A DNA stretch of 64,000 bases from Octopus vulgaris. Lineage: Eukaryota. Numbering within the stretch: the first letter of the stretch is position 1; every line of letters starts with the position of its first letter. This document shows, one piece after another, positions 30,435 through 47,380 of this stretch. Location of the stretch: NCBI GenBank assembly GCA_951406725.2, contig OX597818.1, positions 16,802,001 to 16,866,000 of the forward strand. The letters run 5' to 3'. The translations under genes were made by a program, and so were the position numbers. A model generated the notes under the pieces. The model ran no database searches. It saw nothing but the letters and a program-made list of their open reading frames with translations, and was not told where the DNA came from.

Positions 30435-32856
30435 CAGCACTGCTTAAACTATGAGATACGACACCATTTGGGGTTGTGAAGTGAAATACTGAGGTCACAA
30501 AAATTAAATTCAAACTTCAGTTTGTTATTTCACAAATGCACAATATTTAATGTGATGTGCCATGCAAGCGCTGCAGTAATAAAATGCAAATGCAGTGCTG
30601 TTGCAACTAGTGCAGTGACAACGTGTGTATTTTCAGTGTAGTTGGTTGATTGTGTTCATCTTAATAAGTAGATAAATAACAATACATTTTACTGTTTTAT
30701 TCAATTGAGGTTGATATTTATTTAAAGAATTTCGTAGTTATTTTATGAAATGTTATTTTATTTATATTTCAAAATAAAAATATTTTACTCATGGATAAAT
30801 GGTTGAACTTGAGTAACAAAAGTAATGATGCAGATGGCAATGCTACAAAGTCTGTTCAAGCAGAACCTAGTAATCAGAGAGAGGCATCTGAGATGTGGAA
30901 AAAGAAAATATGATGAGTCAGTTCTCCAATTTGGCTTCACTTTTAATAATAGCAATGGTATGGAACAACCTCCTTGTTTAATTTGCAATAACGTTTTGGC
31001 TGTGGGGAGTATGAAACCCTCAAAATTAAAAAGGCATCTTGAATTCAAACATCAATAAAGCAAAGATATATTTTGAAAGACTGTTTATATCTTCAAATAT
31101 AGAAAAGCAAAATTTTGAGAAATTTTTGGCTATAAATGAAAAATATTCATTAGTATCATACGAAGTTTCATATCCAATTGCAAAAAATAAAAAGCCATAC
31201 ACCATTGGGAAAGAACTTTTATTACCTGCTACTATGAAGATGGTAGAAATATTTCACGGAAGTAAATATGGTGATGAAATTCGGAAAATTCCTTTGTTGA
31301 ACAACATTGTTGCCAATAGAATTACTGAAATTAGCAACAACCATCTATTTCTATGCTTAAAGAAACACAAAATTTGCTATTCAGTTGGACAAAACAACTG
31401 ATATTTTAAAAATGGCACAATTGTTAGTACACATCAGATACATTTATAAAGAAAATGCCAATGAAGAATAGTTATTTTGACATCATTTGGAAGAACATAC
31501 ATGAGGGAAAGACATATATAGTAAAGTTGATGGATTTTTTAAAACTGTAGGTTTGGAATGGAAAAATTGTATTGGAGTATGCACAGATGGTGCAAAAGCG
31601 ATGATGAGTAAAAATATTGGTTTTAAATTCTTTAAGGCTGCTGGTAGTAATCATGTAACTTTTATACATTGCATGAGCCATTGAGAGGCTCTTGAAGCAA
31701 AAAAATTAACACTGGAATTAAACGATATGCTTCAGGATGTTATCAAAATTATAAACTTTATTCAAAGCCGTATCCTTAACAGCCATTTATTTTTAAATCT
31801 CTGTATAGACATGAACTCAGAATACAAAAACTTATTATTACACTCAGAAGTAAAGTGGTTGTCAAGAGGGTGAAGTTTATACAGATTATTGCTGTTAAAA
31901 GACGAAATTATTATATTTTTAACTGAACAAAAATCTGGTCTTGCTGCTCTTTTTCAAAATGACTTATGACTTTCAAATTTATGCCATTTGTCAGATATTT
32001 TTGAGAAACTAAGCGATCTCAACTTTTCTCTTCAAAAATAGAAAAACAATGTATTTACTTCGAATGATAAAACATTTGGAATAATAGGGTGAAAAGTGAT
32101 TCATTCGAAATGTTTCTGGTTATTGAAGATTTTATCATTGAAAAAAATAATTGCAAAAATTAAATACCACTTAAATACCCTAGAAACACAGTTTTGCAAA
32201 TACTTCATATCGAATTTTAATTTCAAAAAGTTATCTTGGATTCAGAAACCATTTTCAATTGACATTGATGATATTAATGATCTGCTGTATAAAGCCCAAG
32301 AGGAGTTCATTGAGCTATCAAGTGATTCAAACTTGAAACTTGATTTTACAAACAAGTCTTTGACTGAATTCTGGATTGGAGCTAAAGGTGAATTTCCCAC
32401 TATTTCTGAAATGGCATTACATGTTCTTTTGTCATTTAGCACCACATACCTATGTGAAACGACATTTTCAGCTTTAACCCTTATTAGAACCAAATATCAT
32501 TCAATAATGAAAAATGTAGATGTAACGTCCGCTTTCCATGCTAGCATGGGTTGGACGATTTGACTGAGGACTGGAGGAACAGATGGCTGCACCAGGCTCC
32601 AATCTTAACTCTGTCAGATCAAGATTGGAGCCTGGTGCAGCCATCTGGTTCGCCAGGTCCTCAGTCAAATCATCCAACCCATGCTAGCATGGAAAGTGGA
32701 CGTTAAATGATAATGATGTATGTATATTGTTCAGCAAAAAAATAAATGATTTATGTATATATTTGTATACTTTATTTCTTATTTAATACCTGGGGTCACA
32801 AAAAAATCTCATGATGAAAAATGGGGTTATGAATGAAAAAAGTTTAAGAAGCACTG
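30435..32856 (+). mobile_element. hAT transposon of the Buster/Charlie group (ZBED8/SCAND3-like transposase), decayed
   Basis: 8-bp TSD ATGTAGAG on both sides with central TA. TIRs cagcactgcttaaact / agtttaagaagcactg. Fragments: BED finger (PPCLICNNVLA...MKPSKLKRHLEFKH), KKPYTIGKELLLPA, CTDGA, HSEVKWLSRG, and the dimerisation motif FSTTYLCETTFSAL. Confidence 0.95.
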
Positions 32857-34938: not shown

Positions 34939-36300
34939 TGTTGTTATTGTTATTAAGTCAAGGTAGCCGAATCACTAACACACCAGATAAAATTCTTAGC
35001 AACATTTCTTCCAGCTTCATGCTTTGAATTCAAAGTGTGATTCATTTCCATTATTGTGATCATGAAAAAAATTTAACCCTCTTCGAAACAAGTGAGGTCT
35101 GGCAACAAGAAGTGCATCCAACCATAGAAAATCTGCCCTCAGTAAATTCACTCCAACCCTTGCAAGCTTGGAAAAGTGGATCTTAAATGATGATGGTATG
35201 TATACATACATACATACGTATGTGTGTAATTTGTTTCCATCATGTATTTTGAAAATAATGGCATATTGATAATGAGGTGCTAATGGGCCAATCACTTACT
35301 GCATTGCCAAAGCTAAAGGACTGGGTAGCATCTCTGCACAAATTGTGTGGGATAAAAATACTACAAAGCATTTTTGTTTGGCAAACCAATTTATTGGCAA
35401 ATTTCTATCTATTATATATGAAGATATACAGACTGTTATGTATTTGTGTGTTTCTATGTATAAATATGTATGAGTATGTATATACATATGCACACACACA
35501 AACACACACACCTGTGTGTGTGTGTGATGTAATACTCCTGTGTTAAGTTCATTTATCCGTTTGATAAGGTTCTGGCAACCCTCCACATCAGGCTAGTCTA
35601 GTGAGGCAGCCATTTTAGTTGTTGATGACCCAGTCATGTCTACTACACATCATCAGTAGCACCCATGCATGACCTGACAGAAATATGTTACAAATAAATA
35701 CTATCAATGTTGCTGTGATCATCAACCTTGCTCAGATGTTTGTAGCATATGTTGTTGTTTAGCCACAGGTTTAACTTGGAGCAAGTAGACTCGTGTTTGA
35801 TGGCAATACAGCTGTTACTATTCTGTTGTTTGTTTTTGGGCTATCCAAGACTACATTAATGAATATGTCATTTCCCCACCACCACCGTTTTTTATAGATG
35901 ATTTGGTGTGGTAGGAGAGGTTTTGCTGTTAATTTTTGCAGGTCATAGAGATCTTCCCCATTACTTTATCCACAACACCCATTCACTTTTTCTCTCACAT
36001 TCATGTTTGTGTGAGTTTACACATGCTCATAATATACTTACATATTGATGCAACCTAGCAGACTGGTTAAGAAGTTTGTTTTGTAATCACAAGGACATTG
36101 GCTCAATCTCAATATGTGGCAGCCCATGAATTGTGAGTGAATTCTGGTAGACAAAAGCAGTTTGAGAGCCCATTGAATGGACTGCACTTGTGGTTAAGAT
36201 ATTCAGCTCCTGAATCTTAGCAATTTCGGCTGTTTAATCTCGATATCACTCCAAACCGGCCAGCCCCAATGAAAAACTAAATATATATATATATATATAT

Positions 36301-36637
36301 AACAATTGCAGCGTGGAAGGTGTTTGTAAGCCATTTAAGAAACACACAAAAGCCGTTCGATTCATTTCAACATTTAAGTTTAATTTGTCAAAATATTTTC
36401 GTCACTAAAATCCGCGACCTGTTCACTGACAAAAATCCGTGCTGCACCTCAGATTTTTGTCAGTGAACAGGTCGCGGATTTTAGCGACGAAAATATTTTG
36501 ACAAATTAAACTTAAATGTTGAAGTGAATCGAACGGCTTTTGTGTGTTTCTTAAATGGCTTACAAACACCTTCCACACTGCAATTGTTTTCGTTTCAGCA
36601 CACGATCTCAGATCAAATCACTTGCTACGCGAGTACA

Positions 36638-36638
<1 letters not shown>
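36301..36638. mobile_element. Penelope-like inverted pseudo-LTR fragment (137-bp-arm hairpin plus tail) in a (TA)n/(CT)n tract
   Basis: Arms 36301-36437 and 36452-36588 with 3 mismatches and a 14-nt loop. One-sided ~50-nt tail, hammerhead motif inside, microsatellite flanks. Confidence 0.7.
36456..36505 (+). ncRNA. Minimal type I hammerhead ribozyme motif with G3-C8 covariant core (mirror copy on the minus strand in the left arm)
   Basis: tttgtca GTGAACA g gtcgc-ggatttta-gcgac GAA AATATT T tgacaaa. 7-bp stem I, 5-bp stem II, palindromic stem III AATATT, UUU triplet. Confidence 0.6.
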
Positions 36639-36682
<44 letters not shown>

Positions 36683-38250
36683 GCGTTTGTGTTTGTCCCC
36701 CTAGCATTGCTTGACAGCCGATGCTGGTGTGTTTATGTCCCCGTTACTTAGCGGTTCGGCAAAAGAGACCGATAAAATAAGTACTGGGCTTACAAAAGAA
36801 TAAGTTCCGGGATCGAGTTGCTCGATTAAAGGCGGTGCTCCAGCATGGCCAAAGTCAAATGACTGAAACAAGTAAATAAAAAGCGTATATGAATATTCAT
36901 ACCCCAAATCATTAATCCATTTACTTTTAGTTACTTTACATATATCTTTACACACACAGTAACACATGTCTATATGCTTCATTTTGTAAGTGTGTGTGTG
37001 TGAAGTACTTTGCCATAACCCCACCTTATTGCTGACGCCTTCCATTTAAATAGGAATCACCCTCTTAAGTCAGAGGCAATATCAGTATCACAAGGAAGCA
37101 GGATGATCCAACTGCAAGAGGGGGTCTAAGGAAAAAGAGGAAGTGTGATATCCAGTTACTGTGACACCTATAGCAGTTCCTTTAGACTTGAGAGGAAGTG
37201 CCAGTGCCCTGTACCCTAATTAACAGGATAAATGTCAATGAATGAATGAAGTTGGGGTTGTTTAGCCCCAGGTCAAACGTGATTGAATAAGACCTATGTT
37301 AAGACATGTTCTAGTCACGATCACTTTGTCTTCTTAAGGATACCGAAGACGACATTATGCAGCGTGTCTTTTCCTTTTTAAGACTAGAATGTGATTTGAA
37401 CAAGATTTGGGTGCTATTTTTAGCAGGTTTGGTGACCTCATATAAAAACTACCTCGTTGGTTCATCTATAACGCGTTTCTCTTACATTGGTGAGTATGTG
37501 TATTCACACACACTTGTACAAACCCACACATGTATCTGCTATATTCCTCCACCACTATCCTCCTCCCACAGCCGGATTATGCTGGCTCCCTGTGATGCTG
37601 ATGTCACATCTTAGACAAACAATGAAGTAATGGTAGGAAGAGTCTGTGGTGGAGGCGTGAGACCAGATAAGGAATCTTCTAGATACCACTGGATAGTTTC
37701 TATCTTGCAGATTAACATATTTCCTCTGAGAAATATATATATATATATATCTGTTATTTATTTTTTCTTTCTAAAATGTTTATTTCGAAAATATTCCATT
37801 CAAGCTTTTACATGCACGTGCAAGAACACACACACACACACACACACAAACACACATATACACACACATTACATTACATTATGAAACTAGTTGTTATTGT
37901 TGCTAATCGTCAGGTGAACCTTGATCTGTTGATCCTTATGATAAAAGGCATCCTGCCAGTGACCAAGTGCATTAAATGTGTCCTTCCATTTTTGGGATAA
38001 AGAAGTATTAGTTGATGGAGGTTTGGCTGGTATTTCTAGCAGGTTGGGTGATCACATAGTCCTTCCCACCCTCTCATTGACTCATTGTATATGTAGTTGA
38101 ATTATTAGGTACACACACAGTCATCATCACCAGTTTGTCTGTCATGTGGTAATGGCATTGGTTGGGCAGGTCTGCACCAGCTCAGTATTTTGCAGCATTT
38201 CACCACATGGTGTTGTCATTCATCGTCTTCTTTAGGAGGTATGGCATCTT

Positions 38251-38500
38251 GATTACATCGACCCCAGTGCGTAACTGGTACTTAATTTATCGACCCTGAA
38301 AGGATGAAAGGCAAAGTCGACCTCGGTGGAATTTGTGAGTTCAAATTCCGCCAAGGTCGACCTTGCCTTTCATCCTTTCAGGGTCGATGAATTAAGTACC
38401 AGTTACGCACTGGGGTCGATGTAATCGACTTAATACCTATGTCTGTCCTTGTTTGTCCCCTCTGTGTTTAGCCCCTTGTGGGTAGTAAAGAAATAGGTAT
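38251..38500 (+). mobile_element. SINE family B insertion with an inverted duplication replacing its 5' end
   Basis: TSD aggtatggcatctt(ga) at 38237 and 38495. 85-bp arms at 38251-38335 and 38342-38426. Confidence 0.85.
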
Positions 38501-45076: not shown

Positions 45077-45341
45077 CCGGAGTAAACACATAAATGTGAA
45101 ACAAGGTGGAAAAAAGAGTACTCAAATACCAGTGGTAGAGTAATATGCTTTATTTAAAGCAGCAGAAAATTCAACAAAACCTGTTACTCTGAGTTTCCCG
45201 TTGCCGTTCATCGGACAGTTTTTGCTAGAATGGAACTGATATGTCCATATCGGTTCCATTCTAGCAAAAACTGTCCGATGAACGGCAACGGGAATCTCAG
45301 AGTAACAGGTTTTGTTGAATTTTCTGCTGCTTTAAATAAAG
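45077..45341. mobile_element. Penelope-like inverted pseudo-LTR fragment (96-bp-arm hairpin plus tail) inside the (TA)n tract of a SINE
   Basis: Arms 45148-45243 and 45246-45341. One-sided ~70-nt tail, hammerhead-like motif followed by AATAAA. The host SINE halves continue on both sides. Confidence 0.7.
45181..45218 (-). ncRNA. Minimal hammerhead-like motif (U4C core, 2-bp stem II with GCAA loop)
   Basis: Minus strand reads ctgt CCGATGA a-cg-gcaa-cg-g GAAA ctcagag TA acag. Quasi-palindromic stem III ACTCAGAGT and GUA site. The mirror copy on + has GAAA mutated to GAAT. Confidence 0.5.
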
Positions 45342-47380
45342 AATATATATATATGTTTGTGTGTCCATGTTTGTCCCACCACCATTGCTTGACAACTGAT
45401 GCTGGTGTGTTTACATTCTCGTAACTTAGTAGTTCAGCAAATGAAGCTGATAGAATAAGTATTAGGCTCACAAAGAATGTCCTGGGGTTGATTTATTCGA
45501 CTAAAGGTGATGCTCCAGCATGGCTACAGTCAAATGACTGAAACAAATAAAAATAAATTAATGAATAAGGTTAATATATATATATATAATGAATTTGCCA
45601 TTTTCTGTGGGTGTGCCATAGTCAATTGCATGAACTCCAGTGCTCAACTGGTTCTTTATCAACCTCAGAAAGATGAAACTCCTAGTGGAGTTTGAACACT
45701 GAACATAAAAATGGACAAAATGCCACTTTGGATTTTGCTCGGCATGCTAACAATTTTGCCAGCTTGTTCCTTAAATAATAACAACGACAATAATGATGAT
45801 GGTGATTTCTTACATGCGAACAGATTCTCTAATTTGGGGAAAGGAATAGTTGAATGTATCGACCCTTGTACTTAACTAGTAAGTACTTTATTTGATCGAC
45901 CTTGGAAGAATGAAAGGTAAAGTCAGTTTCAGTTGGATTTAAATTCAGAAGTTAAAGGACCATAACTTAGATATCTCAAGGCATTTTGTCTGATGCACTC
46001 CACTGCCTTAATAATAATAAAAGGCTATTGTAACTGAGTATTTCTATGCCAGTAAACGATCTAAGCATATAAGGAAAAAAAAAACCTCAGTAGTAGTGTC
46101 TAATGAGAGGTCTGTAAAATCCATCATTAGTTAAGAAGGCTGTAGTTCTCTAATGGCCTTTGTAGTTAATGGAGGGAATCTGTTAGGAACGTCAAAACAG
46201 GAACAGATCAAAGATAAGGCACAGTGTGTACTCCTCATCTTTGGCCTGTGGAATCTTAACATCTTAACCAAATACCATTCTAATCAAACATCATATCTGG
46301 TGTATCCTGGCCTACATTATCTAATATTTCTTTTTATTACTTTCTTTCTTTTGTAAGATGATAGGGTGTGACTTGAGGTTTATTAGCCTACTGTTTCTAG
46401 TAATTCATGTGATCAATGTACAGGCCCCTTCATTGGCTTGCAGGACGGCCTTGACTTGAATGCTTTTAAGGCGAGGTGTGCTTGACTAGTGTTAAGTCAA
46501 GTGTAAATAACAATCAGAGCAAAATTATTTCTGAAACATCCTAACTAATTTTACATAGGTGTGTGTGTGTGTGTGTGTGTGTGGCTCGTCCAACCCCTCC
46601 TCTCAGCATGTTGTTAAACTCTTTTGCTACCGACCCATTGTAGACCACCCCTAGTTTGGTGATTGATAAATCCAAATTTGAATGATGTTAGTGTTCAAAC
46701 TAAAATCTCCCATCAAAAAATTCATATGAGAATCTTTTGTTCTTATCTAACTTGAACACCAAACGCCATCTTAATAACTGTTTCTAATATAGGCACAAGG
46801 CTAGAAATTTCTGAGTGCAGACTAATCAATGAAATTTTCCCCAGTATTTGACTGATACTTTGTCATCAAATCCTAGAAGGATGAAAGGTAAAGTTCTCAG
46901 CAGGATTTGAACTCAAGAATGGGAAGAGCCAAAACAAATGCTGCTGCAAAGCATTTCTTCAATGCTCTCATGATTCTGCCACTCCACACTCCCCTATCCG
47001 TCACTAACAATTGAGTATGCTTTGGTGACATTTATCCTTTCAATACTAATTGTTGTTGGTGACTTTTAGTTATGAACAGGCATAAACTCCTACTCAGCTT
47101 TCCTGCTCAATATTCCAGTAGAATATCAAAGATGTCACTGTAGGAAGTTAGGAGGCTTCACACCAGCGTTCAGCTAATACTAATTCTGAGCTGATTAGAT
47201 TGGTTCTATGTGAATTAGAGCACCTTGCTTAAAGGCACAATGTATTGCCAAGTCAAGGAATTGTACCTACAGACTTATGATTGTAAATCCAATAACTTTA
47301 CCACTAGGTCCCTGCCCCATAGCACCATCTTAATAATGAAGAAATCATTTCTACCAGATTCACACATTTTTCTTTTATTA

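What the first reader, a model, noticed from the sequence alone, without database searches (positions are those of the whole stretch)
36301..36638. Hairpin element carrying a hammerhead ribozyme with a compensatory G3-C8 core on both strands
Seen: a 137-bp-arm near-perfect palindrome (3 mismatches) with a one-sided tail, in a (TA)n/(CT)n tract directly before a SINE A 3' half. Each arm folds as a type I hammerhead: stem I tttgtca/tgacaaa, core GUGAACA instead of CUGANGA, one extra G, stem II gtcgc/gcgac, GAAA, palindromic stem III AAUAUU, predicted cut after 36498. Known: C3 and G8 form a tertiary Watson-Crick pair, so a G3/C8 double change is compensatory. An extra base after A9 is tolerated. 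Penelope-like elements carry minimal hammerheads with palindromic stem III that work as dimers. Inference: this is a non-canonical ribozyme family that CUGANGA-based searches would miss, and the covariation suggests selection for activity.
Basis: partly seen in the sequence, partly recalled or inferred. Interest (0 to 1): 0.85.

Follow-up and report, generated by a model that had tools for sequence, protein, structure and literature searches.

The report
Penelope retroelement end with swapped hammerhead
The hairpin is two head-to-head copies of the front end of a common jumping gene (a Penelope-like retroelement), and each copy carries a predicted self-cutting RNA fold whose key internal base pair is reversed (G-C where related elements have C-G or U-A); I did not find that natural version in print, and its cutting activity is untested.

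Summary
Observation confirmed. The hairpin is not an element of its own. Each arm is the first ~150-200 bases of the transcript of a Penelope-like retroelement (PLE), whose RT + GIY-YIG gene starts at 36555 and continues in copies elsewhere. The one-sided tail, (TA)n targeting and 11-16-bp target duplications are standard PLE features.

The hammerhead fold is real. Across 17 homologous motifs the 3-8 pair is C-G in 9, U-A in 5 and G-C in 2 (this family), with stems covarying. The family's sister has C-G. Natural U-A is published; natural G-C was not found in four searches, but two key papers were unavailable.

Activity is unshown. Only 1 of 51 inserted pieces starts near the predicted cut, and RNA read through the whole hairpin cannot fold the ribozyme.

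Variable centres and arms from different subfamilies (5 of 30) suggest each hairpin forms at insertion from two primed cDNAs. New variant of a known kind; interest 0.5.

The parts
36301..36450 (-). Inverted arm: copy of the 5' end of the PLE transcript, without tail. Its outer end (36301-36304) is the shorter of the family's two recurrent 3' ends.
   Evidence: 13 pieces end at the matching place L083:2362-2369
36384..36433 (-). Hammerhead motif of the inverted arm (G3 at 36426, C8 at 36421, predicted cut after 36391); one G-U wobble in stem II
36438..36451 (.). Head-to-head junction of the two arms, at the 5' start of the RNA; differs from copy to copy
   Evidence: 15 distinct centre strings among 18 readable copies of 30
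36451..36588 (+). Direct arm: PLE pseudo-LTR (5' UTR and first codons)
   Evidence: 96-97% identical to both ends of the long parent copies L082-L086, L094
36456..36505 (+). Type I PLE-minimal hammerhead motif with G3 (36463) and C8 (36468), extra G at 36470, palindromic stem III, U17 at 36498; predicted cut after 36498
36555..36641 (+). First 29 codons of the PLE ORF (RT + Zn-finger linker + GIY-YIG); the rest is absent here
   Evidence: same frame continues in L066/L067/L078 and L082-L084
36589..36641 (+). One-sided PLE 'tail': the stretch between the family's two recurrent 3' ends
   Evidence: (loose ends at both places); the sister family also has two ends 56 bases apart
36281..36300 (.). 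(TA)n target, left side
   Evidence: 17 of 27 scored copies sit in (TA)n
36642..36682 (.). (CT)n run grown from the element's last bases, then (TA)n target, right side

Best explanation
The hairpin is two head-to-head copies of the 5' end of a Penelope-like retroelement, likely made in one insertion, and each copy carries the element's hammerhead motif with a reversed (G3-C8) core pair that is predicted, not shown, to cleave.

Shown: a parent element with RT, a CX3CxxC linker and a GIY-YIG nuclease has this motif about 90 bases before its ATG and again at its 3' end. Homologous motifs of sister families carry C-G or U-A at 3-8. Copies end at two fixed places about 60 bases apart and mostly begin 15-20 bases before stem I.

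Inferred: transcription starts there (likely a capped start). A likely dimeric RT-nuclease nicks both strands of AT-rich DNA and primes reverse transcription at two sites inside the first codons. Each cDNA would run back to the RNA's 5' end, and the two would join through a short self-complementary stretch, giving a hairpin with a tail on one side.

The ribozyme likely works only in the parent's RNA, as a slow, dimer- or protein-dependent cutter between the start and the AUG. The copy in this window is likely inert.
For: Parent: the frame opened at 36555 continues into a long ORF. GIY-YIG scores 25.5 bits against a cut-off of 22.6 on L085; there is a YVDD RT motif and a BLAST match to another PLE-type ORF of this genome. 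The arm matches both ends of the parent.

Insertion marks: 8 of 27 scored copies have 11-16-bp target duplications, 17 lie in (TA)n, 2 show none (3 of 30 dropped for lacking the anchor).

Ribozyme homology: the motifs lie at the same place before a homologous N-terminus in the sister families. In 17 rows, 91.8% of cells pair, covariation is 0.706 against 0.19 in shuffles and at most 0.19 in slid controls; pair 3-8 is C-G 9, U-A 5, G-C 2, unpaired 1. The G-C family and a C-G family are sisters (SH-aLRT 100, quick tree), and the outgroups with a scored motif have C-G or U-A. G3-C8 is the family state: 98 of 108 arms not selected for position 8, none C3-G8; 18 of 19 family sites's list have C8 (counted by eye). 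Departures from each column's commonest letter are 1.6% in the core and 1.5% in stem I, against 15% in loop II, 2.6% in the 3' flank and 3.8% in the ORF (107 rows). The core is also read in contigs of two other organisms (X16, X18).

Hairpin formation: 15 distinct centres among 18 readable copies, and 5 of 30 hairpins have loop II from different subfamilies on their two arms. 19 of 28 tail-selected loci hold both orientations. A G absent from the parent precedes the start in 17 of 24 pieces. PMC11167929 shows two internal RT starts bounding the tail, extension of both strands, a predicted dimer, and partial rescue by an engineered C3G/G8C double change.
Against: No cleavage was measured. Only 1 of 51 pieces starts within 3 bases of the predicted cut, while 28 start at L083:2216-2228, so inserted copies come from uncut RNA. 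G3 can pair with U17 (P 0.67), and a 10-base palindrome at 36490-36499 offers a competing dimer.

The 3-8 pair is not kept everywhere: old family E has C-A in 6 and U-A in 4 of 15 rows; 219 sites carry G3 with G8; L025 has the same C8 change on both arms. Within-family percentages mix subfamily differences with decay, and rows are not independent. The rows were picked by a scanner that already asked for stems, so the stem statistics lean in favour; the 3-8 states were not filtered by the pattern.

The two arms of a copy are usually alike: at 36563, 3 of 30 copies are discordant against about 15 expected by hand calculation if arms were independent, and 7 copies share a private variant on both arms. 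This also fits fold-back synthesis or later conversion. About 5-7 of the 17 extra Gs can be read from the opposite arm (by eye), and the start also lies at a branch-point/acceptor-like sequence, so a spliced 5' end is not excluded.
Confidence: 0.72

Rival explanations
1. Same element and motif, but the inverted arm is made from one template by fold-back or self-priming (the published reading, on an antisense template), and mixed arms arise later by gene conversion between copies.
For: Arms are strongly correlated: 27 of 30 agree at 36563 and 7 of 30 share a private variant. PMC3846280 (passages) reads head-to-head PLE palindromes as self-priming.
Against: 5 of 30 hairpins differ between arms by a multi-base subfamily marker. 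The inverted arm ends at the same place as tailless direct 3' ends of parents (L085, L094). Either arm can be the 5'-truncated one.
Confidence: 0.3
2. The motif descends from a hammerhead but no longer cleaves to any useful extent; it is kept as a folded 5' UTR or protein-binding site, and G3-C8 preserves shape only.
For: No footprint of cutting among inserted pieces (1 of 51). G3-U17 pairing and a competing palindrome. Family E has lost the pair. In PMC11167929 ribozyme mutants did not impair insertion in vitro and no RNA-seq ends were found at the cut; PMC4209133 reports low activity for such motifs.
Against: G12, A13, A14, A15.1-U16.1, U4, G5, A6 and G10.1-C11.1 are invariant in all 17 rows. 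A two-base change that keeps a tertiary pair known from the active fold is hard to fix without selection on that fold. Engineered G3-C8 ribozymes keep partial activity (PMC11167929, PMC8495972).
Confidence: 0.35
3. The 340-base hairpin is a self-propagating non-autonomous element (MITE-, SINE- or retrozyme-like) copied as a unit.
For: At least 40 near-full-length copies at 92-98% identity, from 1,465 candidates; tandem arrays of monomers exist (L073, L074).
Against: Centres differ in 15 of 18 readable copies. Monomers, half-truncated hairpins and ORF-bearing parents share the same ends. RNA through the hairpin is a 137-bp duplex that hides both motifs.
Confidence: 0.07

Closest known systems
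Minimal type I hammerheads in PLE pseudo-LTRs (Cervera and de la Pena 2014, PMC4209133)
   Same: Position in the pseudo-LTR, extra base between 9 and 10.1, G10.1-C11.1, palindromic stem III, frequent U17, pairs on opposite strands, large numbers of solo copies, natural U3-A8 variant.
   Different: G3-C8. None of the representative motifs in their Fig. S3 has it (read: C3-G8 apart from two U3-A8 and one U3-G8); no cephalopod is listed there.
Poseidon PLE of Anolis (PAc; Frangieh et al. 2024, PMC11167929)
   Same: Hammerhead near the ORF start, two RT start sites inside the first codons bounding the tail, AT-rich targets, uncut RNA as template.
   Different: PAc has C3-G8 (G3-C8 only as an engineered rescue). 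Its hammerhead overlaps the start codon, while here it lies about 50 bases before it. This element has the Zn-finger linker that Poseidon lacks.
Neptune/Nematis-type endonuclease-bearing PLEs (Craig et al. 2021, PMC8557442)
   Same: C-terminal GIY-YIG with CCHH residues, CX2-5CxxC linker, (TA)n bias, inverted 5' copy, tail.
   Different: Only 21-24% identical to the other GIY-YIG-bearing PLE-type ORF of this genome that I compared. The short spacer after the linker looks like the Nematis rows of their Fig. S2 by eye, but the clade was not tested. The tail is about 55-60 bases against the 30-40 quoted.
Natural hammerhead core variants (Perreault et al. 2011, PMC3088659)
   Same: Covariation at 3-8 that keeps a Watson-Crick pair.
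   Different: The passages read report U3-A8 only.

Membership tests
Penelope-like element, endonuclease-bearing | Single ORF with RT followed by GIY-YIG | tested here: met
   Parent copies: GIY-YIG over cut-off on L085; YVDD motif; RVT_1 only weakly, 6 of 47 relatives. L085 is stop-free for 1,025 codons but lacks the ORF's start; the start is seen in L082 and L083, which have stops or frameshifts.
Penelope-like element, endonuclease-bearing | Pseudo-LTR holding the first codons, repeated at both ends, with optional tail | tested here: met
Penelope-like element, endonuclease-bearing | Inverted 5'-truncated copy adjoining the insertion; target-site duplication | tested here: met
   19 of 28 loci with both orientations; 8 of 27 with 11-16-bp duplications
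Neptune/Nematis clades | CX2-5CxxC linker before GIY-YIG, and CCHH residues | tested here: met
   read in the L085 translation
Neptune/Nematis clades | RT placed in the clade by phylogeny with reference elements | not tested
   no reference sequences held; the tree has none
PLE minimal hammerhead (type I) | Stems I and II around the core, with covariation | tested here: met
PLE minimal hammerhead (type I) | Invariant core bases and a Watson-Crick pair between 3 and 8 | tested here: met
   U4, G5, A6, G12, A13, A14, A15.1, U16.1 invariant in 17 of 17; 3-8 paired in 16 of 17
PLE minimal hammerhead (type I) | Literal C3 and G8 of the published consensus | tested here: not met
   G3-C8 in 98 of 108 arms, C3-G8 in none; this is the variant
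PLE minimal hammerhead (type I) | Extra base after 9, G10.1-C11.1, short palindromic stem III, NUH at the cut | tested here: met
   window sequence
PLE minimal hammerhead (type I) | Self-cleavage, as a dimer or with protein | not testable with these tools
   no raw RNA reads were offered; contigs cannot show ends
Rfam hammerhead families | Match to a curated model | tested here: not met
   no hammerhead row at E<=10 in 35000-38000
MITE or other unit-copied hairpin element | Copies share one internal structure between terminal inverted repeats (definition recalled) | tested here: not met
   15 distinct centres among 18 readable copies, one-sided tail, monomers
Animal non-LTR retrozyme | Non-coding head-to-tail repeats with a hammerhead, giving circular RNAs (from search listings and recall) | tested here: not met
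   this copy is head-to-head and holds the start of a PLE ORF; circular RNA not testable; arrays of monomers do occur elsewhere (L073, L074)

The most novel reading that the evidence does not exclude
An active natural G3-C8 hammerhead, the third Watson-Crick state of the catalytic 3-8 pair, fixed in a high-copy cephalopod retroelement and invisible to standard motif searches. Its thousands of hairpin by-products record the PLE mechanism directly: a dimeric RT priming two capped, uncut RNAs, sometimes from different source elements, and joining the two cDNAs head to head.
Probability: 0.35. Interest if true: 0.72.

Novelty: new variant of a known kind. Interest (0 to 1): 0.5.

Why it matters
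For ribozymes: G3-C8 is, in the papers I could read, only an engineered and partly active rescue. A natural lineage that fixed it, beside sister families with C-G and U-A in one genome, is a ready comparative set for asking what surrounding sequence makes the swap tolerable. It also means hammerhead censuses that fix C3 and G8 miss whole families.

For retroelements: how Penelope-like elements make their inverted 5' copies and what their hammerhead does are open questions (stated in PMC8557442 and PMC11167929). These short hairpins, with variable centres, mixed arms and a defined 5' start upstream of the cut, let the two-RNA and fold-back models be told apart by counting.

Tried and rejected
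Rfam: only below-threshold microRNA-hairpin matches, caused by the palindrome.

The 20 best-looking GIY-YIG loci belonged to other PLE families; none was the parent, and one held an unrelated neighbouring copy. No relatives in viral contigs and one in prokaryote genomes, probably a contaminant. A DNA search with 36499-36590 returned nothing because its words are too common, so it says nothing.

No RNA holder listed: all RNA labels were guesses, and only contigs could be laid, so expression, start site, splicing and cleavage in vivo were not tested. Contig depth falls steeply past the tail end, but the tool says depth is no copy number.

The idea that G3 with G8 is an evolutionary intermediate was not supported: those copies are mostly of the older subfamily and often differ from their partner arm, which fits decay. 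It is not excluded, because a genome-wide count of all 3/8 states was not obtained. The idea that U17 is a special compensation for G3 was dropped: U17 is common in published PLE motifs and present in C-G and U-A sister families. It may still have eased the swap, since G3-C8 is reported to work better without C17 (PMC3884650, 'data not shown').

No exon matching the extra 5' bases was found in the parents. One search was swamped by microsatellite hits and redone. The careful tree did not finish; one search is the quick tree. Earlier findings of this scan hold nothing on this element. Lunse et al. 2016 and Przybilski and Hammann 2007 were not held.

Full report
Observation. The palindrome and tail are as described: arms 36301-36444 and 36445-36588, 3 mismatches in the outer 137 bp. 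Each arm folds on its own as a hammerhead-shaped junction with G at position 3 (36463), C at position 8 (36468), an extra G at 36470, a palindromic stem III and U17 at 36498. A strict scan finds the two arms in the window and nothing in 100 resamples. Rfam has no hammerhead hit. The repeat from 36683 is a neighbour, not a part.

It is a family. The window lies in a 2.8-Gb animal genome; the best named relative of the parent protein is an Octopus vulgaris record at 54% identity. A search with the element gave 1,465 candidates; 40 were scored, with near-full-length matches of 92-98%. Of 27 copies scored, 17 lie in (TA)n, 8 have 11-16-bp target duplications and 2 show none; 3 of the 30 lacked the anchor. 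This points to target-primed retrotransposition.

The parent. The + strand opens a frame at 36555 that runs through the tail. Sixteen sites carry its continuation, and three run on for more than 1.5 kb. [quoted passage not shown] This is the layout of an endonuclease-bearing Penelope-like element of the Neptune/Nematis type as described in PMC8557442. The clade was not tested by phylogeny, and I saw no single copy that is both complete and unbroken. So the arm is the pseudo-LTR with the first 29 codons, and the tail is the PLE tail.

Is the hammerhead real? A pattern with positions 3, 7, 8 and 9 left free gave 10,631 forward matches against 559 in the reversed control (reverse-strand counts are inflated by overlapping matches). 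They fall into several families. All lie roughly 90-130 bases before a similar N-terminus. The motif also lies 3' of the ORF in related metagenome loci: one search lists candidates in 14 of the 81 loci, and I used 7 of them in the alignment.

In an alignment of 17 motifs (two rows misaligned in stem II), 91.8% of cells pair, 10 of 12 pairs show two-sided changes, and the covariation score is 0.706 against 0.19 in shuffles and at most 0.19 in slid controls. The 3-8 pair is C-G in 9, U-A in 5, G-C in 2 (both this family) and unpaired in 1. The rows were picked by a scanner that wanted stems, so stem figures lean in favour. The 59%-identical sister family has C3-G8 and groups with this family at SH-aLRT 100 in a quick tree whose other scored members are C-G or U-A, so G-C is likely derived.

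Within the family, G3-C8 is in 98 of 108 arms not selected for position 8 and C3-G8 in none; 58 of these were chosen by likeness to the window. In one search's list, 18 of 19 family sites have C8, counted by eye over the first 5.6 Mb of C1; scaled up, that is several thousand sites, a rough figure. Departures from each column's commonest letter are 1.6% in the core, 1.5% in stem I, 15% in loop II, 2.6% in the 3' flank and 3.8% in the ORF. The core is also read in contigs of two other organisms.

Against activity. Nothing was cleaved here. Among 51 pieces in 28 loci selected only by their tail, 28 start at L083:2216-2228, 33 start at or before stem I, and 1 starts within 3 bases of the predicted cut. 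Inserted copies therefore come from uncut RNA, as in the Anolis system, where the ribozyme needed protein and was dispensable for insertion in vitro (PMC11167929). G3 can pair with U17 (P 0.67), and a 10-base palindrome at 36490-36499 offers a competing dimer. Old family E has C-A in 6 and U-A in 4 of 15 rows; old family G has C-G in 16 and U-G in 8 of 28. 219 sites carry G3 with G8; they are mostly old-subfamily copies and look like decay. RNA read through the whole hairpin forms one duplex and cannot fold either motif, so this copy is likely inert.

How the hairpin likely forms. Copies end at two places about 60 bases apart, as do those of the sister family; PMC11167929 showed that such ends are two internal RT start sites and that both target strands are extended. 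Centres differ in 15 of 18 readable copies of 30, and 5 of 30 hairpins carry multi-base subfamily markers that differ between arms. A G absent from the parent precedes the start in 17 of 24 pieces (the printed p-value assumes 18% G and includes about 5-7 cases readable from the other arm). I infer two primed cDNAs, each copied back to a likely capped 5' end and joined through a short self-complementary stretch there. Against this, arms are usually alike (27 of 30 agree at 36563; 7 share private variants), which the published self-priming reading (PMC3846280) or later conversion also explains; and the start coincides with a branch-point/acceptor-like sequence.

Against the literature. PMC4209133 already describes the extra base, the palindromic stem III, opposite-strand pairs and natural U3-A8; its Fig. 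S3 list has no G3-C8. PMC3088659 reports U3-A8. G3-C8 appears only as an engineered change in PMC11167929, PMC8495972 and PMC3884650. Searches found no natural G3-C8. The library lacks most subscription papers, and Lunse et al. 2016 and Przybilski and Hammann 2007 were not held, so the claim is 'not found', not 'unreported'.

What I saw of each paper. PMC11167929: parts 1-2 of 4 (main text and start of methods). PMC4209133: parts 1-2 of 4, and supplement 2 parts 1-2 of 3; its file 1 could not be searched. PMC8557442: abstract, passages and supplement hits. PMC3088659, PMC3884650, PMC6765202, PMC3846280, PMC8495972: passages only. The hammerhead numbering and the MITE and retrozyme definitions are recalled. 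The family letters A-G are my labels.

Verdict. A real, probably unrecorded core variant of a known ribozyme in a known kind of retroelement, with by-products that make a standing question on PLE mechanism countable. Identity as a PLE end about 0.95; homologous hammerhead with G3-C8 as family state about 0.9; cleavage under some natural condition about 0.6; two-cDNA origin about 0.65. Interest 0.5.

Noticed in passing
window 45143-45346: A second hairpin (102-bp arms) inside the TA tract of a SINE-like repeat. Each arm has a hammerhead-like fold with C in place of U4 and a palindromic stem III; it also matches L048. Probably the end of another PLE family, with another non-canonical core.
   Followed up: partly
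window 38251-38426 and 32520-32708: Inverted duplications of the ends of two other repeats, unrelated in sequence to this element.
   Followed up: no
L087-L091 (sister family): Many near-identical copies with a 1,312-codon ORF holding a long asparagine-rich insert before the RT; its hammerhead has C at position 9 in some copies and A in others. C9 also occurs in L182 and L095.
   Followed up: partly
L176, L262-L275 (family E): Old family whose commonest 3-8 state is a C-A mismatch (6 of 15 rows), with U-A in 4: possibly a lineage caught between C-G and U-A.
   Followed up: partly
L083:2197-2221 and 113 bases after the stop codon: Branch-point, pyrimidine tract and acceptor-like bases end just before the recurrent 5' start, and a donor-like site follows the stop codon: a possible intron holding the microsatellite-rich region. 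No spliced copy was seen.
   Followed up: partly
L073, L074: Arrays of 6 or more head-to-tail monomers separated by (TA)n, each with the motif: a natural setting for dimer cleavage.
   Followed up: no
L031-L035, L047: Another high-copy PLE-type family with a 781-codon RT + GIY-YIG frame preceded by a separate long open frame.
   Followed up: no
L175: A PLE-type RT + nuclease match in a contig of a bacterial metagenome-assembled genome, probably host contamination.
   Followed up: no
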